Positions 1,173-38,678 are shown, counted from the first letter of the whole stretch. The stretch is DNA of 63,190 nucleotides, filler included, from Rhabdomonas costata (GCA_019059605.1; 54 parts of 54 records of this genome joined end to end with filler, not necessarily neighbours in it); one strand, 5' to 3'. The notes: generated by a model not told the origin, from the sequence alone. Numbers and translations are program-made.

Positions 1173-2343
1173 TTTTGGTGTTTTGTAAAAAATATTTGAT
1201 TCTTTGGTTTCCTGTTTTGTGAGCACCAATGTTAACGAGTATATGGTATCTGGAGTTTTTGGTTACTGGTAACCTTTTCTCTGATGGTCACTGGTTCCTT
1301 GTTGCCTTGAGTGTGTTTCTTAACTGGGTTGGAGTACGTTTGCATTACTGCCTTCGGTTACTGTGGTCGTTTTATGTCGCTGTGTTTTGGGTTACTGATC
1401 TGGTGTTTGTTTGTTGTTGAATTAGGCTGGTACATGTGATTGCGTTGAGACATTTTTGGAGAACTACGACTAGCATATACATAAGCCCCTGCGGGGCACA
1501 CTCACATCTACAGCCATGGGCCGAGCAGTGGTTGTAGCTGGTAATCCAATGTATGCATACAAAGGTATGCCTATGAGGTGGTAGCGACATCAGCGTTGAC
1601 ATCACTCCATGGTTAGCCATCAGCATTTCATCACCCACACAACCAACATCGCCTTCAACACACAGCTGGCTTGGTTGGCATGTTAGCATCTCATGTGGTG
1701 GTTGTCATTATTATCACTATTCACATCACACTTCACGTCTGATGTAAAGTGGATGCATTTGGTTAGTAGCGGTGGAAGCATCACACCCATCAACATAAAG
1801 CGCAGCGGTGACATCAGCCTTAGGCACAGAGTTGGCATACGCAATACCATCAAGATTACGATTGGGGCGGTAACATGACAGGTTGCCGTGGTCATCTTTG
1901 CGTGGACTGCATCCAAGCCGTCACCATGAACTACATTGGTGATGTTGTGGTTGCTTGGATGGCGTTGGGGTGTATTTGCGCCATAGACCACTACCACCAG
2001 TGTGGGGAACATACACCCCACACCAAGCACATCACGATGATCACAACCACCCATCGCACAGAGTACGGCTTACGGACTACGGTCCCTCCGTCCACAACAC
2101 CAAGGGATCACTTGCTGGATAGTGTTGCCGGATTTTATAGAGACTGTGACCCCGCCAAGAAGGCCAAAAGGCCCGCCAAAAACCCCCCTTTCCGCCATTT
2201 CCTGCGCCTCCGTACGCCTGTTTCCTTCGTCTGCCCACACACCNNNNNNNNNNNNNNNNNNNNNNNNNNNNNNNNNNNNNNNNNNNNTTAATTAATTAAN
2301 NNNNNNNNNNNNNNNNNNNNNNNNNNNNNNNNNNNNNNNNNNN

Positions 2344-2846
2344 TTGATTACACTCCGCCGCATTTCGCGGCGCGGGGCGGGGTCCTTCGCGACTCCCGCT
2401 TTTCCTCGGTGACCTGACGGTTGTGGTGATTTCTTCTCCTTCTGGGGTGGCGTGGCTACGAGTGTGCGCGAATTTGGCGTCAGATGTACGACCTGGTAGA
2501 TGCTTGCTCAGCGCGTCACGACGTGCTGCGTCCGGTAGATGATGATTCCGCTCCAGCCGATCCGCTGCGCCGTCAGGGCCCAGCCTTCTGCCCGGCCACT
2601 TACCTGTCCCGGTGGGTTCTCAGGACTGCGGACCCGGCTGGGGCCCACCGTTCCCGAACGCCTGTGACGCGCGTTGGGCGCTGCCGTGGCTTACCGTGGT
2701 ATACACCAAGTACCTGGCTTTGATTACACTCCGCCGCATTTCGCGGCGCGGGGCGGGGTCCTTCGCGACTCCCGCTTTTCCTCGGTGACCTGACGGTTGT
2801 GGTGATTTCTTCTCCTTCTGGGGTGGCGTGGCTACGAGTGTGCGCG
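2344..2846 (+). repeat. 127-bp perfect direct repeat (2344-2470 and 2720-2846) separated by 249 bp
   Basis: ttgattacactccgccg...ctacgagtgtgcgcg occurs twice. The first copy starts at the contig edge. Confidence 0.9.
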
Positions 2847-3620
2847 GGCGCGAAAGCTTTGACTCCAAAACCCAAACCTCTTGGCAAATTGCCTGCGTGT
2901 GGGCTGCCCTTCCGCGTGGAGGGTGTGCTTTCGACTGCCTGGTGCCTGTGGTGTGCTTTGGCTTCTCCCCTTCTCACAAACGCGAGCATTTCAGGGGGTG
3001 TGGGTGTGCCCTTTGGCCTTTCACAGCTTTCCCCTATTCCCGGCTTGTGCGTAGAAGCAAGGTGAGCACAGCAACAGCCAAACATTACGAATCAAGGCAA
3101 GTCTAGCCAAACACCGCACGACTTACGATACACAGCTCCACAGCCTAAACCTTCACAAAACCTCTTGAGCGGAACCCTACGAACTCAACCCCGACAACCA
3201 AACCACAAACAAATGCCAAAAAGAAGATTTTAAACACACCACACTTCAACCCATTGCGTTACGCAATTATCAAACTTCTACTCTAACACGTCAGGTCAAA
3301 AAGCCACAAATCACTTCCAAAGCCTTTTTTGATTCTTTAAATCAATGTAGAAGGTCTTGAAGATTCAATTTAAAGTAGTCTACTTAAAAATCCGCGGCAT
3401 TCTCGACCACCCCCACANNNNNNNNNNNNNNNNNNNNNNNNNNNNNNNNNNNNNNNNNNNNTTAATTAATTAANNNNNNNNNNNNNNNNNNNNNNNNNNN
3501 NNNNNNNNNNNNNNNNNGTTGTTGTGTGTCTTGCGGGTGCATTTGGAAGCGAAAGACGAAGGCAGTGGGAGACCCAGGGTGCCGGGGTCTGTGCGGAGGT
3601 GTGCGGAGGCGATGACAAAC

Positions 3621-4088
3621 CAATCTCTTCGACCTCGACCCCATTCTGCTCCAGGTACTCCGAGAGAGTCAGTGGGTTGCCATCCGTGGAGCACGCCACG
3701 ATGTCGTCCCCGTGGTTCCTGGCCTGTAAGAACACGGCGTACGTACGCTGTTGCATCGACCCAAAAGCCAGGCGTGCATCACCAAAAACTCAGCCACTTC
3801 TCATCGCTGCGCAAAATTCTCCAACTCTGATTCCAAAAAACGTAGCCGACATAAAGTTGTTGGGAGGGGCTCCAGCTCTGGTTTAACTCACGCTGCGTCA
3901 TGAGTTGGCGATCACTGAAAGTCGATCAAGAATTTATACGAAACTAAGTTTCTACTTGTAAGTATGCAATTGACGTCCGTGTGTGTGTGTGGCGAGAGAA
4001 AGAAAGTAGTCTGAAGAACCTTGTCCGCCACAAAGTCGATCAGGGCCTTGCAGGGCATCCCGCTGGACATGTGCACGTGGACATCGAT
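3621..4088 (-). CDS. AMP deaminase, partial (2 exons: 4088-4020, 3723-3621)
   Basis: Spliced peptide IDVHVHMSSGMPCKALIDFVADK|ARNHGDDIVACSTDGNPLTLSEYLEQNGV matches the AMP deaminase D.H.H metal motif and the following DxIV...G..LTL segment. GT-AG intron 4019-3724 is in phase. Confidence 0.8.
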
Positions 4089-4515
4089 CTGAAAGAGGGT
4101 AAAAAAGAGACGAGAAAGCTCCAACGGTCCGTAAAGTGATAGGTATCGAAGGCCGTGTCCGAACGCTGGGGAGGGTTTTGCAATTTATTGTTATTAAAGG
4201 GGGTTTATTGGTATCAAAAGGTAAGGAAGGAAACCTAGACATTCACCTCGGTATGCCTCTCCAGCGTATTTTTGGCGACGAGTCTGAGTGGAACGATTTA
4301 CTTGCCGGTCGCCAGTAAACCGCCAGACCATCTGAAGTTAACACGTTTAACACCACTCCCACCAGGAACCGCATCACCAAAGGTCTTTGCTTAACAAATA
4401 GTTTTCATAAAGATGCACGCACACCTACATGGCTTTTTTTTTCGATTACAGCTTCCCATTGCTCACGCATCAACAGGATCGAAACCACACCTCGACCTCG
4501 TTCGAGCTTAAGATG

Positions 4516-4555
4516 AGTAAGTAATAAGTAAGTAAATAAGTAAGTCAGTAATAAG
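4516..4555 (+). repeat. Degenerate (AGTA/TAAG)n simple repeat
   Basis: agtaagtaataagtaagtaaataagtaagtcagtaataag. Confidence 0.7.
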
Positions 4556-6148
4556 AGGACTGTTTGAGATTAAAGGAGGATGGGGATGGNNNNNNNNNNN
4601 NNNNNNNNNNNNNNNNNNNNNNNNNNNNNNNNNTTAATTAATTAANNNNNNNNNNNNNNNNNNNNNNNNNNNNNNNNNNNNNNNNNNNNGTGGTGGGTGT
4701 GTGTGGTGCTTGGTGGTTCCTTTCGCTGACGCTTGCTGTGCAATGCGAGGAGGACAGAAACGACGGACTGAATGAGAGTTGGTGTAAGAAGAGGGTGCGT
4801 ATGTGTGAGAGTTGAAATCCAGAGTGCCCAGGTACTTTCACTGCGCCAACGACACCCATCGTTTGGGCGCCCTTCTCTACTCCCAGCTGTTTTTTGACTT
4901 TGGGTGCATGAAGCTATACGCACCCCCCTCTCTGTCTCTGTCGTTCCGCCACGATCTCGGCTTCGCTGTGTGCCTCTGATGCCCCAGGCCCAGCCTCCCC
5001 GGCTGGGCCTGGCCTTCTGTGCAGCCGCAGCCTCCCAGCCTTTGTTCAGGGCACAATAATGAGGTGCCGCTCCGCAGCACGGAGCGGGGCTCGTGGGCCT
5101 TCTCCCGTGGCTGCCTCTGGTCGGCCGATTTATCCCTTCCTTCCTGAGTCGCAGTTCACATCGTAATTGTGTTTTTGGGGGCAGCACCCCGTTGGCTACC
5201 TAACCCCACAAATGATGTGTGCAACCTAGGGATTCCATGGGTTAGGGTTAGTCAAAGATAATTATGTGCGCCCGTTATTGATGATCTGGATCTTTTCCGG
5301 GATGTGATGATAATGAGTCGATGGGCACCGTCACTACCATGAACGAAATCAGGAAGGACGATCAAAAGAAGAGCCTCACCGAACCGGACGGCATCTTGAA
5401 GACTTTACGAACCACGACGAAAGCTCCAAAGAAGATCAATCAAAGCAGCAGTAGAAGGGGAGAGTCCTCCACCCTTTGAGCAGCGGTGGAGAGGCGGCCA
5501 ACAGCCCTCCTAAACTTCTAAAGAAGCCTCTTGTGAGAATGGTAGAATTGGTACACGCGTCTGTGATTTTCAGGGCCGGCGGCTGAGGAGCGTCCCCCTG
5601 CCGAGATTGTGCTGCGGCAGCTTTGCGCGGCGTCCTCAAAGGTCTCCCAGGTCAAGAGCGACTTCTGCTCATGCGAGGATCTCAGCAGGGGTCTGAGGGC
5701 CCACCCTTCCCTCCATACCTGCCTCCACGTGCGCACTCCTTTGACTTGACAACAAACACAANNNNNNNNNNNNNNNNNNNNNNNNNNNNNNNNNNNNNNN
5801 NNNNNTTAATTAATTAANNNNNNNNNNNNNNNNNNNNNNNNNNNNNNNNNNNNNNNNNNNNGGGTTTGTGTGCTCCTCAACTTCAACCTCTACCTCTTCT
5901 TTGAGGAGCACAGAAATCCTCCTGCTCCCTTCATCAACACTGCATACCATTCAATTAGAGTATTGCCTGGTGCACTAGAATCGCAGGTGGCCAAACGGAC
6001 GGAGCCTTGGTGAGCAATCCCCCCACTCTCGTGGGGTGTGGGTGTCTAAGAAACCTTCATTCATTCGTTTGTTCGTCATTACAGCACTGCGCTCCCCCAT
6101 TCCCGTCCGCGAATCCTGATTATTCATCAGGGAGCGAAAAACACGGAC

Positions 6149-13503: not shown

Positions 13504-14064
13504 GTATATGATTGGATTTGGGGCAGAACTTTGGGTGTCGTGGTGGATAGGGATTCTTCATTTGCTTATCCTCGGCATTTTCATACCACAACTAACCCCA
13601 CAACCCTCTCTTTTGAAATTGGATGGGTACTTTAACTGGTTGACCTCTGGTCTGTATGTTGATCTGAAGAAACTGGCGCATCGTGGTGTTTTCACTGTGG
13701 AGGTGCAATCACTGACAGGCGCAAAAAAAAACACGGACAGAAAGTCACTTTAACTATACTGAAGACTCCACTGCGAGCTGAACTGAAGGGCCAGGTATGT
13801 TATTGCCCCCACCCCGCTGCTGTTCAACCATCTGGATGACCAACGCTAGCCTTGGTGCGAACACTACTGAACTTTGAAACGTGAAAACGTTGCCAGTACG
13901 TCTCTCTGTCTCTTTCTCCTGGAAGGAAGGGCTCCACCCCAATCTTCCTTGTAATCACAATCTCNNNNNNNNNNNNNNNNNNNNNNNNNNNNNNNNNNNN
14001 NNNNNNNNTTAATTAATTAANNNNNNNNNNNNNNNNNNNNNNNNNNNNNNNNNNNNNNNNNNNN

Positions 14065-14693
14065 TCATCTGATGTAAAAGTATTATCTTTAATGTTTGTA
14101 AGATCTTTTTTAATTTTTCTTATTTCAGAATAAAAATAATTTCGTTTTTCTTTCTTTTCTTGTTTTGAAAGTTCCATCTCATTAATTTTTCCTATTTCAT
14201 CTTTTACATGAAAAGATATATTAACAAATTTATTAAGATGATCTAAAAAATGTTCTGATATATTATTTTCAATATTTTTAATAATGTCAATAACTTCATA
14301 AGCAATAATAAAATTTAATTTTGTGTCATTTAATATTTCGTTAGAAATGCATTTTTTAAATTCATCATTATAAAATATTTTTAATTTTTCTAATAATTGT
14401 TTAGTTGTTTTATTAGGAGGTTTCCCTCTAGTATCTTGTCGAACAGTTATTGTTTTAATAATACATTTAATAAAAATTTCATTTATATTTGGAAAATGTT
14501 CATTATTATCATATAATTTAATTAAATATAATTTAAGAAATTGATATGTTTGAATAATGATTTTGTTGACAAGAATTACATGATCATTAATATTTTTATG
14601 TAATTCTGTATTTTTAATAATATTTTTAAGAGGACATTTATTTGTAACAAGCAATTCCAATTTTTCTTTTACTTTTGGTTTTTGAGAATTCAT
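14065..14693 (-). CDS. Fanzor-like (eukaryotic/giant-virus TnpB homolog) protein, N-terminal ~209 aa, truncated by the contig end before RuvC
   Basis: TNKCPLKNIIK...INDHVILVNKIIIQTYQFLKLYLIKLYDNNEHFPNINEIFIKCIIKTI...DTRGKPP...LLEKLKIFYNDEF...LNFIIAYEVIDIIKNIENNISEHFLDHLNKFVN follows the Fanzor1 WED/REC N-terminal pattern I recognise from giant-virus copies. Intronless and very AT-rich. Confidence 0.75.
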
Positions 14694-14797
14694 TTATATA
14701 TACAATACTATATTATTTTTTATATCCTTTTATAAACGAATAAAAAATAAAAACTAATACATTTATATAAAAAGAAGTATTAGTAAAATATATCATA

Positions 14798-15136
14798 ATG
14801 GATGTATACCAATATGTATGTGAAAAATGTAATTTCAAATGTAAATATAAATCAGCATGGGATAGACATATAGATACAGAATTACATAAAACAGGAAAAA
14901 GAAAACAAAGAAATGATATAAAAGAACCGTTTAAATGTACATTTTGCGATTATATAACAAAGAATAATGTGTTGATAAAACAACATATATTAAATGAACA
15001 TTCAACAAAAAAAGAAAGAGAAAATAATTTTAAATATTATTGTTCCGTGTGTGACTATGGAACATTTGCAAAAGATCTTTATGAAAGACACATTAAAACA
15101 ATAAAACATAATAAATATATACAACGACAAACAAAC
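14798..15136 (+). CDS. Triple C2H2 zinc-finger protein, giant-virus-like (runs to the contig end)
   Basis: CEKCNFKCKYKSAWDRHIDTELH; CTFCDYITKNNVLIKQHILNEH; CSVCDYGTFAKDLYERHIKTIKH. Divergent from the Fanzor-like ORF across 104 bp. Confidence 0.88.
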
Positions 15137-16146
15137 NNNNNNNNNNNNNNNNNNNNNNNNNNNNNNNNNNNNNNNNNNNNTTAATTAATTAANNNNNNNN
15201 NNNNNNNNNNNNNNNNNNNNNNNNNNNNNNNNNNNNTTTGTGGGGGTACCGTGGGGACACGGTGCCCTCGACCTCAGAGATGGCGGTCGACGGGCATTGC
15301 CCAAATCGCTGCGCAAACCCAAAACCACACACAGGGGAAGGTTGAGCATGGCAAGCCACAACAGGCTCAGTGCAGCGACAGAACACGAGCAGACGCAGCG
15401 ATGAGAAGAGCGGGAGTATGGCGAAGAAAAGCGGAGGTGTCGAATAAAAACGCGTAAAGTTGTCCGAACCAGAAGACGAATCTGCACAAATCCAAAATGT
15501 GGACGAAGATAGTGCAGCTGACAGAAGAGGAATCTTCATGAATAGTTGACATCGATCAATCGAAAACAAAAAAAGGAAAGGCACTCTGCAGATGCTGTAC
15601 CACTATCCTCTCGGTGTCTTTAACCCCTGATACGCGAGCAACTGCAGAGCAATGTCGGGTGCTCTCGACAACAACGCAACCGCCAGACGAGAATTCAAAT
15701 CATGGGCTGCATATTGGCCTGGGGATGGGAAAGGAGGGCAGATTAAACGGCAAAACACTGATAAACCTTGGCGGGGGGTTTGCGAAGAAGGGAAGCAAAG
15801 CGAGAAGGCGAGGGCGTGACCAACGCAACCCAAAGAAGAAGCGTAAAGGAACACATGCAAGTAAGCAAGGCAAGCCAAGACAAAGAAGACTGCATAAAAG
15901 CGGAAGAACGGAAAAGGAAAACAAGCAGGAAAAAGAGAGTGGGGGGGGGGAGGGCAGCGCGAGAAGAGAAAGCACACCGGAAAGTCACCCTGGTCGGTGC
16001 CTTTGAAGGACTGTGAGAGCAGCTTGCTGTCCGCCTCGCCATCTTCCTCGGAACCTTCGTTCCGGAGGTGCTGTTAGGCAATGAAAACAAAGACTCAGAC
16101 CTGAACAAGCTCAGAAGCTGCAATGACAGCTGATGAACGGGAGTAA

Positions 16147-20752: not shown

Positions 20753-21098
20753 CTTTGTTAGGTGTGTGTCGGGCGGGTTAGGGAGGTGAGTGTGTCTGCA
20801 GTCCTACTGTCGGTCTTCACCAGACATGGATCTTCCCCTGAAATTATATGCTTTTCAGCTCAACAGAATTGCTCAGGCTATAAATTGGCTGCTGCTGTGG
20901 CTTGCACGAGAGGGAGCTCATGCCACACGACGACGTCACGGCAGCGGTGGCGGCAAAGCACGAAGAAATACAAATGCTAAAAGAGGGACCAACCCCCNNN
21001 NNNNNNNNNNNNNNNNNNNNNNNNNNNNNNNNNNNNNNNNNTTAATTAATTAANNNNNNNNNNNNNNNNNNNNNNNNNNNNNNNNNNNNNNNNNNNNT

Positions 21099-22154
21099 TT
21101 GGGTAATGTATTTTCATATGTATCAAATTGTTCAGATGTAATATGTTTAAATAAAAGAATATATTACATCTTATTTCAATCAATTAAAAATACAAGAATT
21201 CAACGTATACTCGATCATTTGAATGACAATCAACCATATGAACGAAAAATTATTCAATTTGAAATGAATCAAGATAAATTAAATGATAACATAAATACTT
21301 TTTGTAACTTGCACGATGACATAAATATAAAAATAAAAAATTACATTTTCTCAGAATTAACAAGTAATACAATTTTTTATATATTAGGTGGTTGTGTTTT
21401 GTATTTAATTTCTGATATAAATAAAATAAAATTCAATAATTCAGATATTGATATTTACATTATATCAGATGATCATAAGAATACAAAAACAGGTATTAGA
21501 AAAGTAATATACGATTTATATAAGATTGACAGTAAATTTATTGTTGTAGAAAATGAAAAAACAATTACATTGTATCATCCAACTTTTAGGAGAATTCAAT
21601 TTGTTAAACATGTTTATAAAAGTTTAATTCAAGTCTTTGACTTTTTTGATATTGATTGTTGTTGTTTTGCTTATAAAAACAACAATATTTATACATTAGA
21701 TGATGCAATCTTTTCTTTAAATAACAAAATAATATATATGAATTATGTATACAAATCAATACTAATTGAACAATTACGATGCTATAAATATCATTGTAGA
21801 GGATTTGATGTTGAAGTAATAAGACAAACATATTATCATACACAATGTATATCAAGTACAAAATCAGTTCAATTTAAGGAAATTGTTGACAAAGATAAAA
21901 TTTATTCATTTAATCAGTTAGTTATGATTACAGATCCACCTGTCTTTACAGATAGATTAAACATAAATAAACGTTATACACATGATATAATTGACAATGT
22001 ACATTGCAGTGTAGCAAATCCACACGAAGTAAATGTATTTTATTTTGAACAATACGGAAATCAAATCAATACAACTGATTATACATATGCAGAATTTTTT
22101 AATAAATTACATGATGTTCAATTGTTAATACAAAAGATTTTTTTAACATTTTAA
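21099..22154 (+). CDS. Pol-beta-superfamily nucleotidyltransferase-like protein, giant-virus-like, 5' partial
   Basis: Intronless AT-rich 351-aa frame with ILGGCV...SDIDIYI (GG/DxD motif), TITL...RRIQF..Y.S...VFDFFDIDCC and R..KY..RGF. Confidence 0.75.
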   Translation: MGNVFSYVSNCSDVICLNKRIYYILFQSIKNTRIQRILDHLNDNQPYERKIIQFEMNQDKLNDNINTFCNLHDDINIKIKNYIFSELTSNTIFYILGGCVLYLISDINKIKFNNSDIDIYIISDDHKNTKTGIRKVIYDLYKIDSKFIVVENEKTITLYHPTFRRIQFVKHVYKSLIQVFDFFDIDCCCFAYKNNNIYTLDDAIFSLNNKIIYMNYVYKSILIEQLRCYKYHCRGFDVEVIRQTYYHTQCISSTKSVQFKEIVDKDKIYSFNQLVMITDPPVFTDRLNINKRYTHDIIDNVHCSVANPHEVNVFYFEQYGNQINTTDYTYAEFFNKLHDVQLLIQKIFLTF

Positions 22155-22592
22155 TGAAATAAAACCCACNNNNNNNNNNNNNNNNNNNNNNNNNNNNNNN
22201 NNNNNNNNNNNNNTTAATTAATTAANNNNNNNNNNNNNNNNNNNNNNNNNNNNNNNNNNNNNNNNNNNNGGTTGTTGTTACGGTAGTTTGGTAAAAAAAT
22301 CCAAATTGGATGTCAAGGACCAGACAGTACGCAGTGCTCAAGTTTGACCGGAACAACGAGTACTGCTTTTTTGACACATCACAGCGGTTGGACCAAATCT
22401 ATCCGAGGACAGTTGCCGGTTAGGATTGACGCTCATACGAACAGATTAATGGAACCCGAAGGAAGCAGAAACCGGGTGATCGATATCTCCAGCCATATCA
22501 GAAGATACCGAAAGCAAACTATCAACATCGGGTCACAGAGCGGGCCTGGGTAATCGAGGGGGCAAAAAAATCCAAAGCAAAGTCCGAAGGAC

Positions 22593-36334: not shown

Positions 36335-36514
36335 GTTTGAATGAAAATTAACAATACCGAAGCAAGCGGTTTAGTGAATTTTACAATATAAGAATATTTC
36401 AATTTTTATTTTACTTTAAATACATATACTTAAAGTAAAATAAAAATTGAAATATTCTTATATTGTAAAATTCACTAAACCGCTTGCTTCGGTATTGTTA
36501 ATTTTCATTCAAAC
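36335..36514. repeat. 85-bp perfect inverted repeat (36335-36419 / 36430-36514) at the contig start
   Basis: The arms are exact reverse complements around a 10-nt loop. Confidence 0.95.
36443..36450 (+). promoter_or_regulatory. AAAATTGA Mimiviridae-type early promoter motif
   Basis: Exact motif about 90 nt upstream of the ATG at 36541, in AT-rich intergenic DNA. Confidence 0.65.
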
Positions 36515-36540
36515 ACATTGCTTTGCCTAAAGTCGACACA

Positions 36541-36858
36541 ATGGCATCTCAAAATCAGTTGTTTGCCGATGTGGACGAAGATCTGCTTCAAAGATTTAAA
36601 GATGCCGAAAAAACTCTTACGAATGCAGACCTTCGACTTTCTGCGGAAATGTTAAACTTTGCTAAGGCAGACGACAAAGAAGCTCAGACTCTCAAAATAA
36701 AAGATGCAGAGCAAGTCAGGAAGCTTGCTCTGGACGAGTACAACAGCCTCCGAACACCTGTCATCGAACATTTGGAGAGCATCATCGGCTTTGAAGAATT
36801 AATCGAGAGCATACGTAATGCCGTATGGCAACTCAATGGCATTGTACGACTGCTGTGA
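36541..36858 (+). CDS. Hypothetical helical protein (105 aa), giant-virus-like ORFan
   Basis: Complete intronless ORF MASQNQLF...GIVRLL*, with a promoter motif upstream and a hairpin downstream. Confidence 0.7.
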   Translation: MASQNQLFADVDEDLLQRFKDAEKTLTNADLRLSAEMLNFAKADDKEAQTLKIKDAEQVRKLALDEYNSLRTPVIEHLESIIGFEELIESIRNAVWQLNGIVRLL

Positions 36859-36889
36859 CTGTTATATAGCTGGACTGGAGAGCACTGCT

Positions 36890-36924
36890 TTTTTATATAT
36901 CAAAATATTTTTCATATATAAAAA
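36890..36924 (+). terminator. AT-rich palindrome after the ORF stop (Mimivirus hairpin-rule 3' end signal candidate)
   Basis: tttttatatat-caaaatatttttc-atatataaaaa, about 30 nt after the stop. Confidence 0.45.
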
Positions 36925-37029
36925 TGATGATATTTACTCTATTTTGCTTATATATATTGAATTATATTCACAAAACACCATCAAATATAGGAAATTTAAC
37001 CTTGTAACATGTTAATTTATCTTTAAATA

Positions 37030-37037
37030 AAAATTGA
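37030..37037 (+). promoter_or_regulatory. AAAATTGA Mimiviridae-type early promoter motif
   Basis: Exact motif about 91 nt upstream of the ATG at 37129. Same context (aataaaaattgaaatat) as the first copy. Confidence 0.65.
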
Positions 37038-37128
37038 AATATATCTGTTATAAAATCAATATATTGAAACGAAAATAAAGTAGGATGTATAAATTCTTCG
37101 TCAATACTGCTCTACACTTTGCTATCTG

Positions 37129-37380
37129 ATGTCTGCAAGTATGCTTTCAAAAATTCTTGCGCATGTCAATGCCGAACGGCAAAAGTTTTCAGATTGTTTC
37201 GACAAGCTTGCTTCAGAACTGCCAGAAGTTTATCCAGAAGTGGAACGCACTTGGAAATGTTCATACATACATTTACTTGAAGCGCAAGATGTATTTCTGA
37301 CTGTCTGTCGCGAAAGCTTTGAGCTGGCATTTGCTGATGAATCGCCGTTCGATCCAGCAGATGATAATGAGGAAAAATAA
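37129..37380 (+). CDS. Hypothetical acidic protein (83 aa), giant-virus-like ORFan
   Basis: Complete intronless ORF downstream of AAAATTGA. Confidence 0.65.
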   Translation: MSASMLSKILAHVNAERQKFSDCFDKLASELPEVYPEVERTWKCSYIHLLEAQDVFLTVCRESFELAFADESPFDPADDNEEK

Positions 37381-38678
37381 AAAAACCACTAAACTCACCC
37401 AACACANNNNNNNNNNNNNNNNNNNNNNNNNNNNNNNNNNNNNNNNNNNNTTAATTAATTAANNNNNNNNNNNNNNNNNNNNNNNNNNNNNNNNNNNNNN
37501 NNNNNNGTGGTGGTGTTGTCCTCGCCCTCTGCGTCACTGTCCTTCCTTTTCCACTGAATATCTCGAAGCCTTTTCCGCTTTGCTTTCTCCTCCCCACGTG
37601 CCGAGCTTTTCTGAAGGGAGAGAGGGGAGGGGAAGAAATAGGGAGAAGTAGAGGTCCCTTCTGCGATACTCACAGGATCACCTGTTGCCTGCAAGGACCT
37701 GTCCGAAGCTTTGAACAGGCTATTCCAGGTCACTGGGGCACGCGCCCCCCTCATGTCTGCATCGACTTACCAGGTTCGCTTTTCACCCGTGCCCTCATTT
37801 TCATTTCTTATTCTTTTTCCGTTGTGCCTTCCCCTCGCAGCCCAATCAGAGCCCTTGCAGCTCATTTTCCGCATACTGGGTTTGGCGGTGGCATGGTACA
37901 CCCAGATAAGCTTCCTCCAACCGGGCACGTGCTCGAGAGAAAACCGACAGAGTTACCCTTTTTAACCACAACCTTAGAAACTCACACTATGTCCGCCTGC
38001 GTCAGTCCTGTCTTTCTTCCTGTTGTCCTACACCTCGTTTCTCCCTCGCAGTCATTTACATGCATTACCCCTTGTGATTGTGGGACGCGCAGGATAAGGT
38101 GGCTGAGGCCACGGTTTCACTCCAGCGGCTGTTCTCCAGGACTCACCCCAAACTGGTCGAGGCGTGGGTTACCCCGTGGGACGAGACCCACACCACGCAG
38201 ACAAAGCTCTCTGAGGACCGTCTCCGGTGCCTTATTATGGGTCCGCAGCCCTAACTCCAATATAACCCCCCCCCACCGCACCCTTCACACACACATGAAG
38301 GCATAGGAAGGCACAAAGGCGGGGCGAGCATGCATGTGCGGTGTGGTTGATATCATGCACGCTGCATGTGTGCGCGTCGGGAAACCCGGCTCCGCACGGA
38401 TTTCATGCCGGCGGTGGTGTTCCAGATCTGTGACAGACCTGGAACACACCACCCCCGTGCTCGCGCGCGGAGAGGGTGCGCTGATCCCGAGCGAGCCGCA
38501 CACAGGACTCAGGACGTACATTGTGGCGGCTCACGCACGCGTACACACACGCACACACACACACACACAACAACCAACNNNNNNNNNNNNNNNNNNNNNN
38601 NNNNNNNNNNNNNNNNNNNNNNTTAATTAATTAANNNNNNNNNNNNNNNNNNNNNNNNNNNNNNNNNNNNNNNNNNNN

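What the first reader, a model, noticed from the sequence alone, without database searches (positions are those of the whole stretch)
14065..15136. Fanzor-like RNA-guided nuclease gene head-to-head with a triple zinc-finger gene on giant-virus-like DNA
Seen: a very AT-rich, intronless contig with a minus-strand ORF (14693 to the contig end) and a divergent three-finger C2H2 ORF sharing a 104-bp intergenic region. Established: Fanzors are omegaRNA-guided TnpB/Cas12-related endonucleases of eukaryotes and their large DNA viruses. The motifs K..LK.I, VNKII..TYQF.KLY, D.RG.P and NNI.EHF..HL..FVN match the Fanzor1 N-terminal WED/REC region as I know it. Inference: this is a new Fanzor locus from a virus (or viral insertion) of an uncultured euglenozoan. 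The zinc-finger gene may be a co-mobilised partner rather than a chance neighbour. RuvC and the omegaRNA lie beyond the contig end and are not seen.
Basis: partly seen in the sequence, partly recalled or inferred. Interest (0 to 1): 0.85.

Follow-up and report, generated by a model that had tools for sequence, protein, structure and literature searches.

The report
Giant-virus Fanzor1 transposon with zinc-finger cargo
This short AT-rich contig is an inner piece of a giant-virus-type cut-and-paste transposon that carries an RNA-guided nuclease gene (Fanzor1) together with a small zinc-finger gene, and related copies show that the two genes travel as one unit.

Summary
A 1072-bp, 19% GC contig (14065-15136) holds the first 209 codons of a minus-strand gene, a 104-bp spacer and a divergent 113-codon C2H2 gene with three fingers.

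The 209-aa piece is a Fanzor1 N-terminus (WED/REC). It matches solved Fanzor1 structures directly and far better as a profile, and its predicted fold points the same way. Full-length relatives (about 660-690 aa, up to 64% identical) keep the RuvC D-E-D residues and the zinc ribbon.

Relatives are common on giant-virus metagenome contigs. There the gene sits inside Tc1/mariner-type elements with terminal inverted repeats and TA duplications. These elements hold a DDE_3 transposase, a variable middle gene and Fanzor1.

In the window's clade the middle gene is this zinc finger. One related locus has a zinc-finger-plus-Fanzor element inserted into another Fanzor gene, so the pair moves together.

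The 3' ends of relatives carry a covarying hairpin, plus a helix joining an internal motif to the element end and its flank. This is a candidate omegaRNA.

Fanzor1 in viral Mariner elements is published. I found no report of the zinc-finger partner. Its function, the host and whether the DNA is free virus or integrated remain open.

The parts
14065..14693 (-). 5' part of a Fanzor1 gene: codons 1-209, covering the WED/REC N-terminal region. The 3' end is cut by the contig end. The RuvC domain, zinc ribbon and omegaRNA region are not in the window.
   Evidence: Translation. Best full-length relative is P0003, 64% identical over 98% of the piece. PDB sequence hits are SpuFz1 at 2e-4 and GtFz1 at 8e-3. 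The profile hits only Fanzor1, at 3e-15 to 2e-13. The AF2 model has pLDDT 89.9 and its top 7 fold matches are Fanzor1.
14694..14797 (.). 104-bp AT-rich spacer between the two divergent start codons; presumed to hold both promoters.
   Evidence: Sequence. No tandem repeat lies in this spacer except a 7-bp AATAAAA run at 14739-14757. The equivalent spacers of L002, L003 and both L005 elements hold 31-32-bp tandem repeats. Promoter function is inferred, not shown.
14798..15136 (+). Gene for a small stand-alone protein with three C2H2 zinc fingers: 113 codons, with probably only a few codons missing at the 3' end.
   Evidence: Pfam zf-C2H2 at 1.5e-7. 25 relatives of 108-129 aa. All 12 zinc ligands and an HKTG motif are invariant across 18 and 30 aligned sequences. 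In relatives it lies inside the transposon ends.
13965..14064 (.). Artificial joint (N44 + TTAATTAATTAA + N44) to the previous, unrelated contig.
15137..15236 (.). Artificial joint to the next, unrelated contig.

Best explanation
The contig is an inner fragment of a Tc1/mariner-type DNA transposon of the kind that populates AT-rich giant-virus (Nucleocytoviricota-like) genomes.

The full element, seen in relatives, reads: TA | inverted repeat | (DDE_3 transposase, leftward) | C2H2 zinc-finger gene, leftward | divergent promoter spacer | Fanzor1 gene, rightward | about 90 nt of structured 3' RNA | inverted repeat | TA. Short derivatives have lost the transposase and keep only the zinc finger and Fanzor1.

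How it most likely works:
1. The DDE transposase, encoded in cis or supplied in trans by a sister copy, cuts and pastes the element into TA sites. This is inferred from the family.
2. The 3' end of the Fanzor transcript forms an omegaRNA. Its scaffold includes the right inverted repeat, the TA and the next A-rich bases, and its guide is read from the flank. The structure is shown by covariation in relatives; expression is not shown.
3. Fanzor1 with this RNA cuts copies of the site that lack the element. Repair from an occupied genome copy then restores or spreads the element. This is inferred from TnpB and Fanzor work.
4. The zinc-finger protein is a cargo kept by selection. Most likely it is a nucleic-acid-binding helper or regulator of the element, acting on the divergent promoter, the element ends or the RNA. 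This is inference and the least certain step.
For: **Identity of the nuclease**
- SpuFz1 active-site residues D383, E541 and D606 (text of Saito 2023) align to D406, E595 and D647 of P0003 (the offset of 394 for the MBP tag is my derivation).
- These three residues are invariant in 26 of 26 aligned full-length relatives.
- PF07282 hit 6 of 6 relatives scanned, 5 of them above the cut-off.

**Viral setting**
- 224 related stretches were found in IMG/VR, and 77 loci were kept, mostly GVMAG contigs up to 720 kb.
- Locus GC ranges 0.16-0.31; the window's clade is 0.19-0.21 against 0.193 for the contig.
- The contig aligns collinearly across both genes with L004 and L006, at 66% over 1108 columns.

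**Transposon**
- Perfect inverted repeats of at least 16 nt bracket the gene in 39 of 77 loci.
- Allowing up to 3 mismatches gives 46 distinct insertions, 45 of them with TA on both sides.
- DDE_3 transposases lie inside the ends.

**Co-mobilisation**
- L005:2168-4999 has perfect 27-nt inverted repeats with TA on each side. It carries a 710-aa Fanzor and a 114-aa zinc finger.
- It interrupts another Fanzor gene, whose two halves align to nt 1-200 and 202-2064 of the intact L003 gene.
- L003 keeps a 57-aa transposase remnant.

**Clade pattern.** The window groups with L002-L006, all zinc-finger-bearing (SH-like support 96). The zinc-finger label needs 4 changes on the tree against 14.8 in shuffles, and 0 of 500 shuffles were as low.

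**RNA**
- A 7-pair hairpin follows the stop codon. Six pairs show compensatory changes and 97.8% of cells pair; 0 of 500 shuffles reach this score.
- A second helix joins an internal motif to the right end plus flank. Cognate sequences pair at 4.77 of 6 type-specific positions against 1.63 of 6 across repeat types.
- This agrees with Yoon 2023, passages read: in Fanzor1 the inverted repeat and the duplication are part of the scaffold.
Against: - The window itself shows none of the ends, the transposase, RuvC or the RNA. All of that is read from relatives that are at most 64% (protein) or 66-74% (DNA) identical.
- Pfam, PHROGs and NCBIfam gave no significant hit for the 209-aa piece itself.
- No Foldseek match reached E <= 1e-3; the best was 2.6e-3 with TM 0.57.
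- The second AT-rich contig of the window has no relative in IMG/VR, so a whole virus in this assembly is not shown.
- No expression, cleavage or transposition data exist for this family.
- The MFE z-score of one 3' region alone is unremarkable (-1.24).
- The duplex energies have no shuffle control.
- The tree is a FastTree run, and the window row fills only 31% of columns.
Confidence: 0.85

Rival explanations
1. The zinc-finger gene is a chance neighbour, or a resident viral gene beside an insertion hot spot, and not part of the mobile unit.
For: Only 15 of 77 related loci hold a zinc-finger relative. Most elements carry other middle genes instead, such as a DUF4379/DUF559 protein.
Against: The zinc-finger gene lies inside the inverted repeats in L002, L003, L004, L008 and L048. 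It moved with Fanzor into another gene in L005. It accompanies three different repeat types and every member of two Fanzor clades except L055, which has only a fragment 4.8 kb away.
Confidence: 0.03
2. The contig is not from a free virus. It is a copy of the element, or of an integrated giant-virus segment, sitting in the nuclear genome of the eukaryote that gave the other contigs.
For: Published Fanzor1 elements occur both in viruses and in virus-derived inserts of host genomes (Bao and Jurka 2013, passages read). The contig was assembled together with 0.47-0.60 GC contigs. The other AT-rich contig has no IMG/VR relative.
Against: GC of 0.193 matches the related giant-virus MAG loci and not the bulk of the window. 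No junction with GC-rich DNA is seen. This rival concerns only the location and does not change what the element is.
Confidence: 0.25
3. The zinc-finger protein is a working partner of the nuclease. It would be an RNA- or hybrid-binding cofactor that helps make, load or aim the omegaRNA-Fanzor complex, so that the unit is a two-protein RNA-guided system.
For: Independent transposase-less derivatives with three different repeat types keep both genes intact (L004/L006, L008, L005 inner). The linkers between fingers are 13-16 aa rather than the classical 7, and two fingers have H-x5-H spacing. There are weak matches to double-stranded-RNA-binding finger models: zf-C2H2_jaz at E 0.41, and PF12171 precomputed for P0246.
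Against: In autonomous copies the zinc-finger gene is co-oriented with, and abuts, the transposase gene; they overlap by 1 nt in L002. That fits a transposition or regulatory role equally well. Fanzor-only elements exist in sister clades (L011, L040, L072), so Fanzor does not need it in general. The finger-type matches are far below threshold.
Confidence: 0.15
4. The Fanzor gene of this particular copy is dead or decaying, and the contig shows only a relic.
For: Decay does occur in the family. The interrupted outer gene of L005 also carries an in-frame TGA.
Against: The 209 visible codons are open and start with ATG, and conserved positions are kept. The zinc-finger ORF is open with all ligands present.
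Confidence: 0.1

Closest known systems
Solved Fanzor1 nucleases: SpuFz1 (8GKH), PpFz1 (9CF0), GtFz1 (9CER)
   Same: The N-terminal WED/REC region is homologous. Full-length relatives align over the whole length, with the active-site D, E and D and the zinc ribbon kept.
   Different: Only about 18-22% identical in the fold alignment. The positions aligned to the SpuFz1 TAM-reading residues Q129, Q130 and N133 differ (N, F and A; my reading of the alignment against the text), so a different TAM is expected. The hosts are giant-virus-like genomes, not fungi or algae.
Mariner-type Fanzor1 elements of giant viruses, such as PGv-1 of Phaeocystis globosa virus, and the ESv-1 family (Bao and Jurka 2013, PMC3627910; passages read)
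   Same: TA duplication, inverted repeats, and a three-gene plan of Mariner transposase + variable middle gene + Fanzor1. Non-autonomous copies hold Fanzor only. Carried by large DNA viruses.
   Different: The published middle genes are a GIY-YIG or restriction-type endonuclease, or a methyltransferase. Here it is a three-finger C2H2 protein. 'C2H2' occurs 0 times in that paper's main text. I could not compare sequences with PGv-1, because it was not fetched.
SfAV and lepidopteran-virus Fanzor1 non-autonomous elements and their reRNA (Yoon et al. 2023, PMC10711439; passages read)
   Same: Fanzor1 in transposase-less inverted-repeat elements of a large DNA virus. The RNA scaffold is predicted to include the inverted repeat and the target-site duplication, with the guide beyond it.
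   Different: That family has a different, unknown transposon type and no second gene. Here the helix also takes in three to four A's beyond the TA, and this flank is invariant (46 of 46).
ISDra2 TnpB / IS200-IS605 omega system
   Same: Works alike in outline: a RuvC nuclease guided by an RNA made from the 3' end of its own gene and the element's right end.
   Different: A different transposase (DDE cut-and-paste rather than HUH TnpA), inverted repeats and a TA duplication, much larger REC, and eukaryotic-virus hosts.
ApmFz2, the mimivirus Fanzor2 in IS607-type elements
   Same: An RNA-guided TnpB-family nuclease on a giant-virus genome.
   Different: No Fanzor2 structure was among the PDB sequence hits of P0003 at E <= 1. 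Fanzor2 rides IS607 elements with a serine recombinase, whereas this family rides Mariner-type elements.

Membership tests
Fanzor1 | N-terminal WED/REC region homologous to known Fanzor1 | tested here: met
   Window peptide against PDB: SpuFz1 at 2e-4 and GtFz1 at 8e-3. The profile of 28 N-terminal relatives hits only 3 sequences, all Fanzor1, at 3e-15 to 2e-13. The top 7 fold matches are Fanzor1 with TM 0.37-0.57, though the best E is only 2.6e-3.
Fanzor1 | C-terminal RuvC domain with the D...E...D active site (alternative glutamate position) and RD motif | not testable with these tools
   It lies beyond the contig end in the window. In relatives it is met: D406, E595 and D647 of P0003 align to SpuFz1 D383, E541 and D606 and are invariant in 26 of 26 sequences.
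Fanzor1 | C4 zinc ribbon (PF07282, TNB domain) | not testable with these tools
   Not in the window. In relatives, 6 of 6 scanned hit PF07282, 5 above the cut-off. It is precomputed for many of the 73 hits.
Fanzor1 | Structured guide RNA (omegaRNA/reRNA) encoded at the 3' end and right end of the element | tested here: inconclusive
   Not in the window. In relatives there is a covarying 7-pair hairpin and a type-specific helix with the right end plus flank. There are no expression data and no Rfam family match.
Fanzor1 | RNA-guided DNA cleavage | not testable with these tools
   Needs biochemistry.
Tc1/mariner (IS630-Tc1-mariner) DNA transposon | TA target-site duplication | tested here: met
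   In relatives, TA lies on both sides in 45 of 46 distinct insertions. The L005 nested insert restores the host gene with a single TA. It cannot be seen in the window.
Tc1/mariner (IS630-Tc1-mariner) DNA transposon | Terminal inverted repeats | tested here: met
   In relatives, 39 of 77 loci have perfect repeats of at least 16 nt, and 47 loci have them allowing up to 3 mismatches in 20 nt. They cannot be seen in the window.
Tc1/mariner (IS630-Tc1-mariner) DNA transposon | DDE transposase with N-terminal HTH domains | tested here: met
   In relatives, DDE_3 plus HTH_28/HTH_32 in L010, L002 and L047. Transposase relatives lie upstream in most loci. It is absent from the window, and no piece is found on any other contig of the window. 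Catalytic residues were not checked.
C2H2 zinc-finger proteins | C-x2-C-x12-H-x4-5-H units with all ligands present | tested here: met
   Pfam zf-C2H2 scores 31.9 bits against 25.2, in 3 stretches. All 12 ligands are invariant in 18 and 30 aligned sequences.
Nucleocytoviricota (giant virus) genome | Viral hallmark genes on the same molecule | not testable with these tools
   The contig holds only the two element genes. Kinship with GVMAG contigs and matching GC are indirect evidence.

The most novel reading that the evidence does not exclude
The small three-finger protein is a dedicated cofactor of the Fanzor1-omegaRNA machine rather than a passenger. It would bind the RNA, the RNA-DNA hybrid or the element ends. 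The ZnF-Fanzor pair would then be a minimal two-protein, RNA-guided homing module that persists in giant-virus genomes even without its own transposase.
Probability: 0.15. Interest if true: 0.8.

Novelty: new variant of a known kind. Interest (0 to 1): 0.5.

Why it matters
Fanzors are the eukaryotic and viral RNA-guided nucleases now being developed as compact genome editors, and their natural role is still unsettled.

This family is large: 936 cluster representatives and 224 stretches in IMG/VR. It has clean ends, a three-gene plan with an exchangeable middle gene, and short derivatives that keep a conserved zinc-finger gene next to Fanzor.

That gives a concrete system for three questions. 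Does a Fanzor have protein cofactors? How does the guide RNA scaffold use the transposon end and flank? Does the nuclease serve to retain or home the element among the many genome copies in a viral factory?

For the window itself the gain is modest. It adds one new, divergent member, seen only in part.

Tried and rejected
- **Family scans of the 209-aa piece.** Pfam, PHROGs and NCBIfam returned nothing significant. The family PF26935, precomputed for the relatives, is not in the local Pfam copy, so its name is unknown to me.
- **Own-genome search.** No genome is held for this window.
- **Earlier findings tool.** Closed.
- **RNA searches.** Rfam and tRNA scans of the window returned nothing. 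An Rfam scan of four related loci also returned nothing.
- **Second AT-rich contig (21098-22169).** No Pfam hit and no IMG/VR relative, so it gives no support for a whole virus in this assembly.
- **Complex prediction of the L002 zinc finger with L002 Fanzor.** The job returned 'no answer' (score 0.00, controls not run, alignments not used). It says nothing either way.
- **Single-sequence folding of one 3' region.** z-score -1.24, not informative alone.
- **First tree script.** It failed on row names and was rerun correctly.
- **One alignment across all repeat types for the second helix (A7).** It put the type-specific segments in different columns. I therefore counted pairs by anchored positions in a script instead. 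That count left out the divergent group (L064-L076, L072, L073, L075), whose internal motif differs, and L030, which has no motif.
- **Euglenozoan host.** I found no way to test it with these tools.

Full report
**What is in the window**

The 63,190-base window is not one molecule. It is about 54 contigs of roughly 1072 bp, joined by artificial spacers of N44, TTAATTAATTAA and N44.

The finding is one of these contigs, 14065-15136. Its GC content is 0.193, against about 0.47-0.60 for most others. Only 21098-22169 (0.219) and 36335-37406 (0.342) are also AT-rich.

On the minus strand an ORF starts with ATG at 14693 and runs open to the contig end, 209 codons. On the plus strand an ORF starts at 14798 and runs open to 15136, 113 codons. 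The spacer between the two start codons is 104 bp.

**The nuclease gene**

Pfam, PHROGs and NCBIfam gave nothing significant for the 209-aa piece. Homology searches did.

- Among longer proteins there are 73 hits at E <= 1e-3, most 650-720 aa. The best, P0003, is 64% identical over 98% of the piece.
- An exhaustive search found 936 cluster representatives at E <= 1e-3, and 17 at <= 1e-30.
- Six full-length relatives all hit the Cas12f1-like TNB zinc ribbon (PF07282), five above the cut-off.
- P0003 matches solved Fanzor1 chains: PpFz1 at 2e-32, SpuFz1 at 7e-32 and GtFz1 at 3e-9. Nothing else matched below E 0.8.
- The window piece on its own matches SpuFz1 (2e-4, chain residues 411-581) and GtFz1 (8e-3).
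- A profile of 28 N-terminal relatives matches only three PDB sequences, all Fanzor1, at 3e-15 to 2e-13.
- An AlphaFold model of the piece is confident (pLDDT 89.9). Its top seven Foldseek matches are Fanzor1 structures with TM 0.37-0.57. The E-values are modest, however: the best is 2.6e-3 and none reaches 1e-3.

Saito et al. 2023 give the SpuFz1 active site as D383, N385, E541 and D606 (passages read). I subtracted 394 residues for the MBP tag, which is my own derivation. With that offset these residues align to D406, N408, E595 and D647 of P0003. D406, E595 and D647 are invariant in 26 of 26 aligned relatives.

In the window itself RuvC, the zinc ribbon and the RNA cannot be seen.

**Where relatives live**

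A scan of IMG/VR with the alignment found 224 related stretches. The 77 loci kept are mostly giant-virus MAG contigs, some of 100-720 kb. Their GC is 0.16-0.31, and the window's nearest clade is 0.19-0.21. At DNA level the contig is collinear across both genes with L004 and L006, at 66% over 1108 columns.

No other contig of the window holds a piece of Fanzor, the transposase or the zinc finger. Whether this copy sits in a free virus or in host DNA is therefore open. The 'euglenozoan' host could not be tested.

**The element**

Inverted repeats bracket the Fanzor gene.

- Perfect repeats of at least 16 nt are found in 39 of 77 loci.
- Of 70 loci whose Fanzor match reached the C-terminus, 66 have a right-end motif within 260 nt of the stop. 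L016, L038, L045 and L067 have none.
- I set aside L032 and L074 and allowed up to 3 mismatches in 20 nt. That gave left ends for 47 loci, 46 of them distinct insertions of 2.3 to 6.7 kb.
- TA flanks both ends in 45 of 46 insertions.

Inside the ends, leftward, lies a DDE_3 transposase with HTH domains (L010, L002, L047). Transposase relatives lie upstream of Fanzor in most loci. Between transposase and Fanzor lies a variable gene:

- a protein with six DUF4379 treble-clef fingers and a DUF559 domain in L010;
- a 944-aa ResIII/Helicase_C/HA helicase in L047;
- the C2H2 gene in the window's relatives.

This is the plan that Bao and Jurka described in 2013 for Mariner-type Fanzor1 elements of Phaeocystis globosa virus and others (passages read).

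**The zinc-finger gene as cargo**

A relative of the window's zinc finger is present in 15 of 77 loci.

- It is divergent from and close to Fanzor in L002, L003, L004, L006, L008, L048, L063, L032, L060 and twice in L005.
- Other cargo lies between the two genes in L047, L049, L059 and L030.
- Where a transposase is present the order is transposase, zinc finger, then Fanzor on the other strand. In L002 the zinc-finger stop overlaps the transposase start by one base.
- L004 (2684 bp), L008 (2548 bp) and the inner element of L005 (2832 bp) have only the zinc finger and Fanzor. L003 keeps a 57-aa transposase remnant. The short forms therefore arose by internal deletion.

The strongest evidence is L005. 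Its outer Fanzor gene is split. The two parts align to nt 1-200 and 202-2064 of the intact L003 gene. Between them sits L005:2168-4999. This insert has perfect 27-nt inverted repeats and TA on each side. It carries a 710-aa Fanzor and a 114-aa zinc finger, divergently arranged. The pair therefore moved as one unit. The interrupted gene has since acquired an in-frame TGA.

On a FastTree of 79 Fanzor rows the window groups with L002-L006, all zinc-finger-bearing (support 96). The zinc-finger label needs 4 changes against a shuffled mean of 14.8, and 0 of 500 shuffles were as low. The window row fills only 31% of columns, and L005's inner copy sits on a long branch.

**The zinc-finger protein**

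Twenty-five relatives of 108-129 aa exist as stand-alone proteins, none with an informative name, so the window's 113 codons are nearly the whole gene.

All twelve ligands are invariant in 18 and 30 aligned sequences: C-x2-C-x12-H-x5-H, C-x2-C-x12-H-x4-H and C-x2-C-x12-H-x5-H. A basic HKTGKRK-like linker is also conserved. The linkers between fingers are 13-16 residues, longer than in classical DNA-binding arrays. The comparison with classical arrays is from my own knowledge.

Its role is not shown. A complex prediction with Fanzor gave no answer and is not used as evidence.

**The candidate guide RNA (in relatives only)**

The 75-110 nt between the stop codon and the right end are conserved.

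- *First helix.* I aligned 33 sequences with the common repeat type, chosen out of 57 distinct ones. RNAalifold predicts a 7-pair hairpin just after the stop. Six pairs show compensatory changes. Pairing is 97.8%, 67 cells are changed on both sides against 21.9 in shuffles, 0 of 500 shuffles reach the score, and slid controls score 0.013-0.185 against 0.754.
- *Second helix.* Directly after the hairpin comes a nearly invariant motif. It can pair with the last bases of the element plus the TA and the following A's. In 44 distinct sequences (36 of one repeat type, 8 of another) the six core positions pair in 98-100%. In the type-specific part, cognate pairs form 4.77 of 6 against 1.63 of 6 across types.
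- *Flank.* This fits the striking right flank. TAAA follows the element in 46 of 46 insertions, with A at +5 in 42, while the left flank is less fixed.

Yoon et al. 2023 report that Fanzor1 reRNAs include the inverted repeat and the duplication in their scaffold and extend about 15 nt beyond (passages read). There are no expression data for this family, and no Rfam family matches.

**How it most likely works**

- *Shown.* Homology to Fanzor1; the element's ends and TA duplication; cargo content; joint movement of the zinc finger and Fanzor; conserved RNA structure. All of this is in relatives.
- *Inferred from the families.* The DDE transposase moves the element, in trans for the short forms. 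The Fanzor-RNA complex cuts sites that match the flank but lack the element, so that repair from an occupied genome copy keeps or spreads it.
- *Least certain.* The zinc finger acts as a nucleic-acid-binding helper or regulator. The 31-32-bp tandem repeats in the spacer of L002, L003 and both L005 elements are possible binding sites. The window's own spacer has none.

**Novelty**

Fanzor1 in Mariner-type elements of large DNA viruses is published. Jiang 2023 links clade Fanzor1c with Mariner/Tc1 (passages read).

I found no report of a C2H2 partner.

- 'C2H2' occurs 0 times in the main texts of Bao and Jurka 2013 and Jiang 2023.
- 'Zinc finger' in Saito 2023 refers to the nuclease's own motif.
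- In the two library searches, no listed paper holds both Fanzor1 and C2H2.
- Supplements, which list neighbouring ORFs, were closed and may hold it.

I rate this a new variant of a known kind. It is of moderate interest for the family and modest for this fragment.

Noticed in passing
window 1-63190: The window is a chain of about 54 unrelated contigs, each about 1072 bp, joined by N44 + TTAATTAATTAA + N44. ORFs or repeats that cross a joint are artefacts.
   Followed up: yes
window 21098-22169: A second very AT-rich contig (GC 0.219) is filled by one 351-codon ORF. It has no significant Pfam hit and no relative in IMG/VR. It may come from the same AT-rich source, but that is not shown.
   Followed up: partly
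window 36335-37406: A contig of intermediate GC (0.342) with only short ORFs and no significant Pfam hit.
   Followed up: partly
L005:1966-6884, with the insert at 2168-4999: A transposon sits inside a transposon. A zinc-finger-plus-Fanzor element with its own repeat type is inserted at a TA within the Fanzor gene of another element, and the interrupted gene also has an in-frame TGA. Its zinc finger is 53% identical to the window's, though its Fanzor is very divergent, which hints at module exchange.
   Followed up: yes
right flanks of 46 insertions (L001-L077): The bases after the right end are TAAA in 46 of 46 insertions and TAAAA in 42, while the left flank is less fixed. They can pair with an internal conserved motif of the 3' RNA. 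It is not settled whether this reflects target choice by the transposase, a need of the RNA scaffold, or both.
   Followed up: partly
L047:447-7096; L049 and L059 are similar: A 6.65-kb element carries four genes: a DDE_3 transposase, the zinc finger, a 944-aa ResIII/Helicase_C helicase with HA domains, and Fanzor1.
   Followed up: partly
L010:1736-7044: A 5.3-kb autonomous element has as its middle gene a 566-aa protein with six DUF4379 treble-clef zinc fingers and a DUF559 endonuclease-like end.
   Followed up: partly
L002:4740-4894; L005:4444-4578; L003 and the L005 outer spacer: 31-32-bp tandem repeats (2.5-4.9 copies, 77-96% matches) lie in the spacer between the zinc-finger and Fanzor genes and share an ATATATAGA-like core. 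The window's 104-bp spacer has none. They are possible protein-binding sites; this is untested.
   Followed up: partly
L002:4357: The zinc-finger stop codon and the transposase start codon overlap by one base, which suggests coupled expression. In L047 and the L005 outer element the gap is 27-36 nt.
   Followed up: no
relatives P0003-P0075: Most relatives carry a precomputed Pfam family, PF26935, which is absent from the local Pfam copy. Its name and definition are unknown to me.
   Followed up: no
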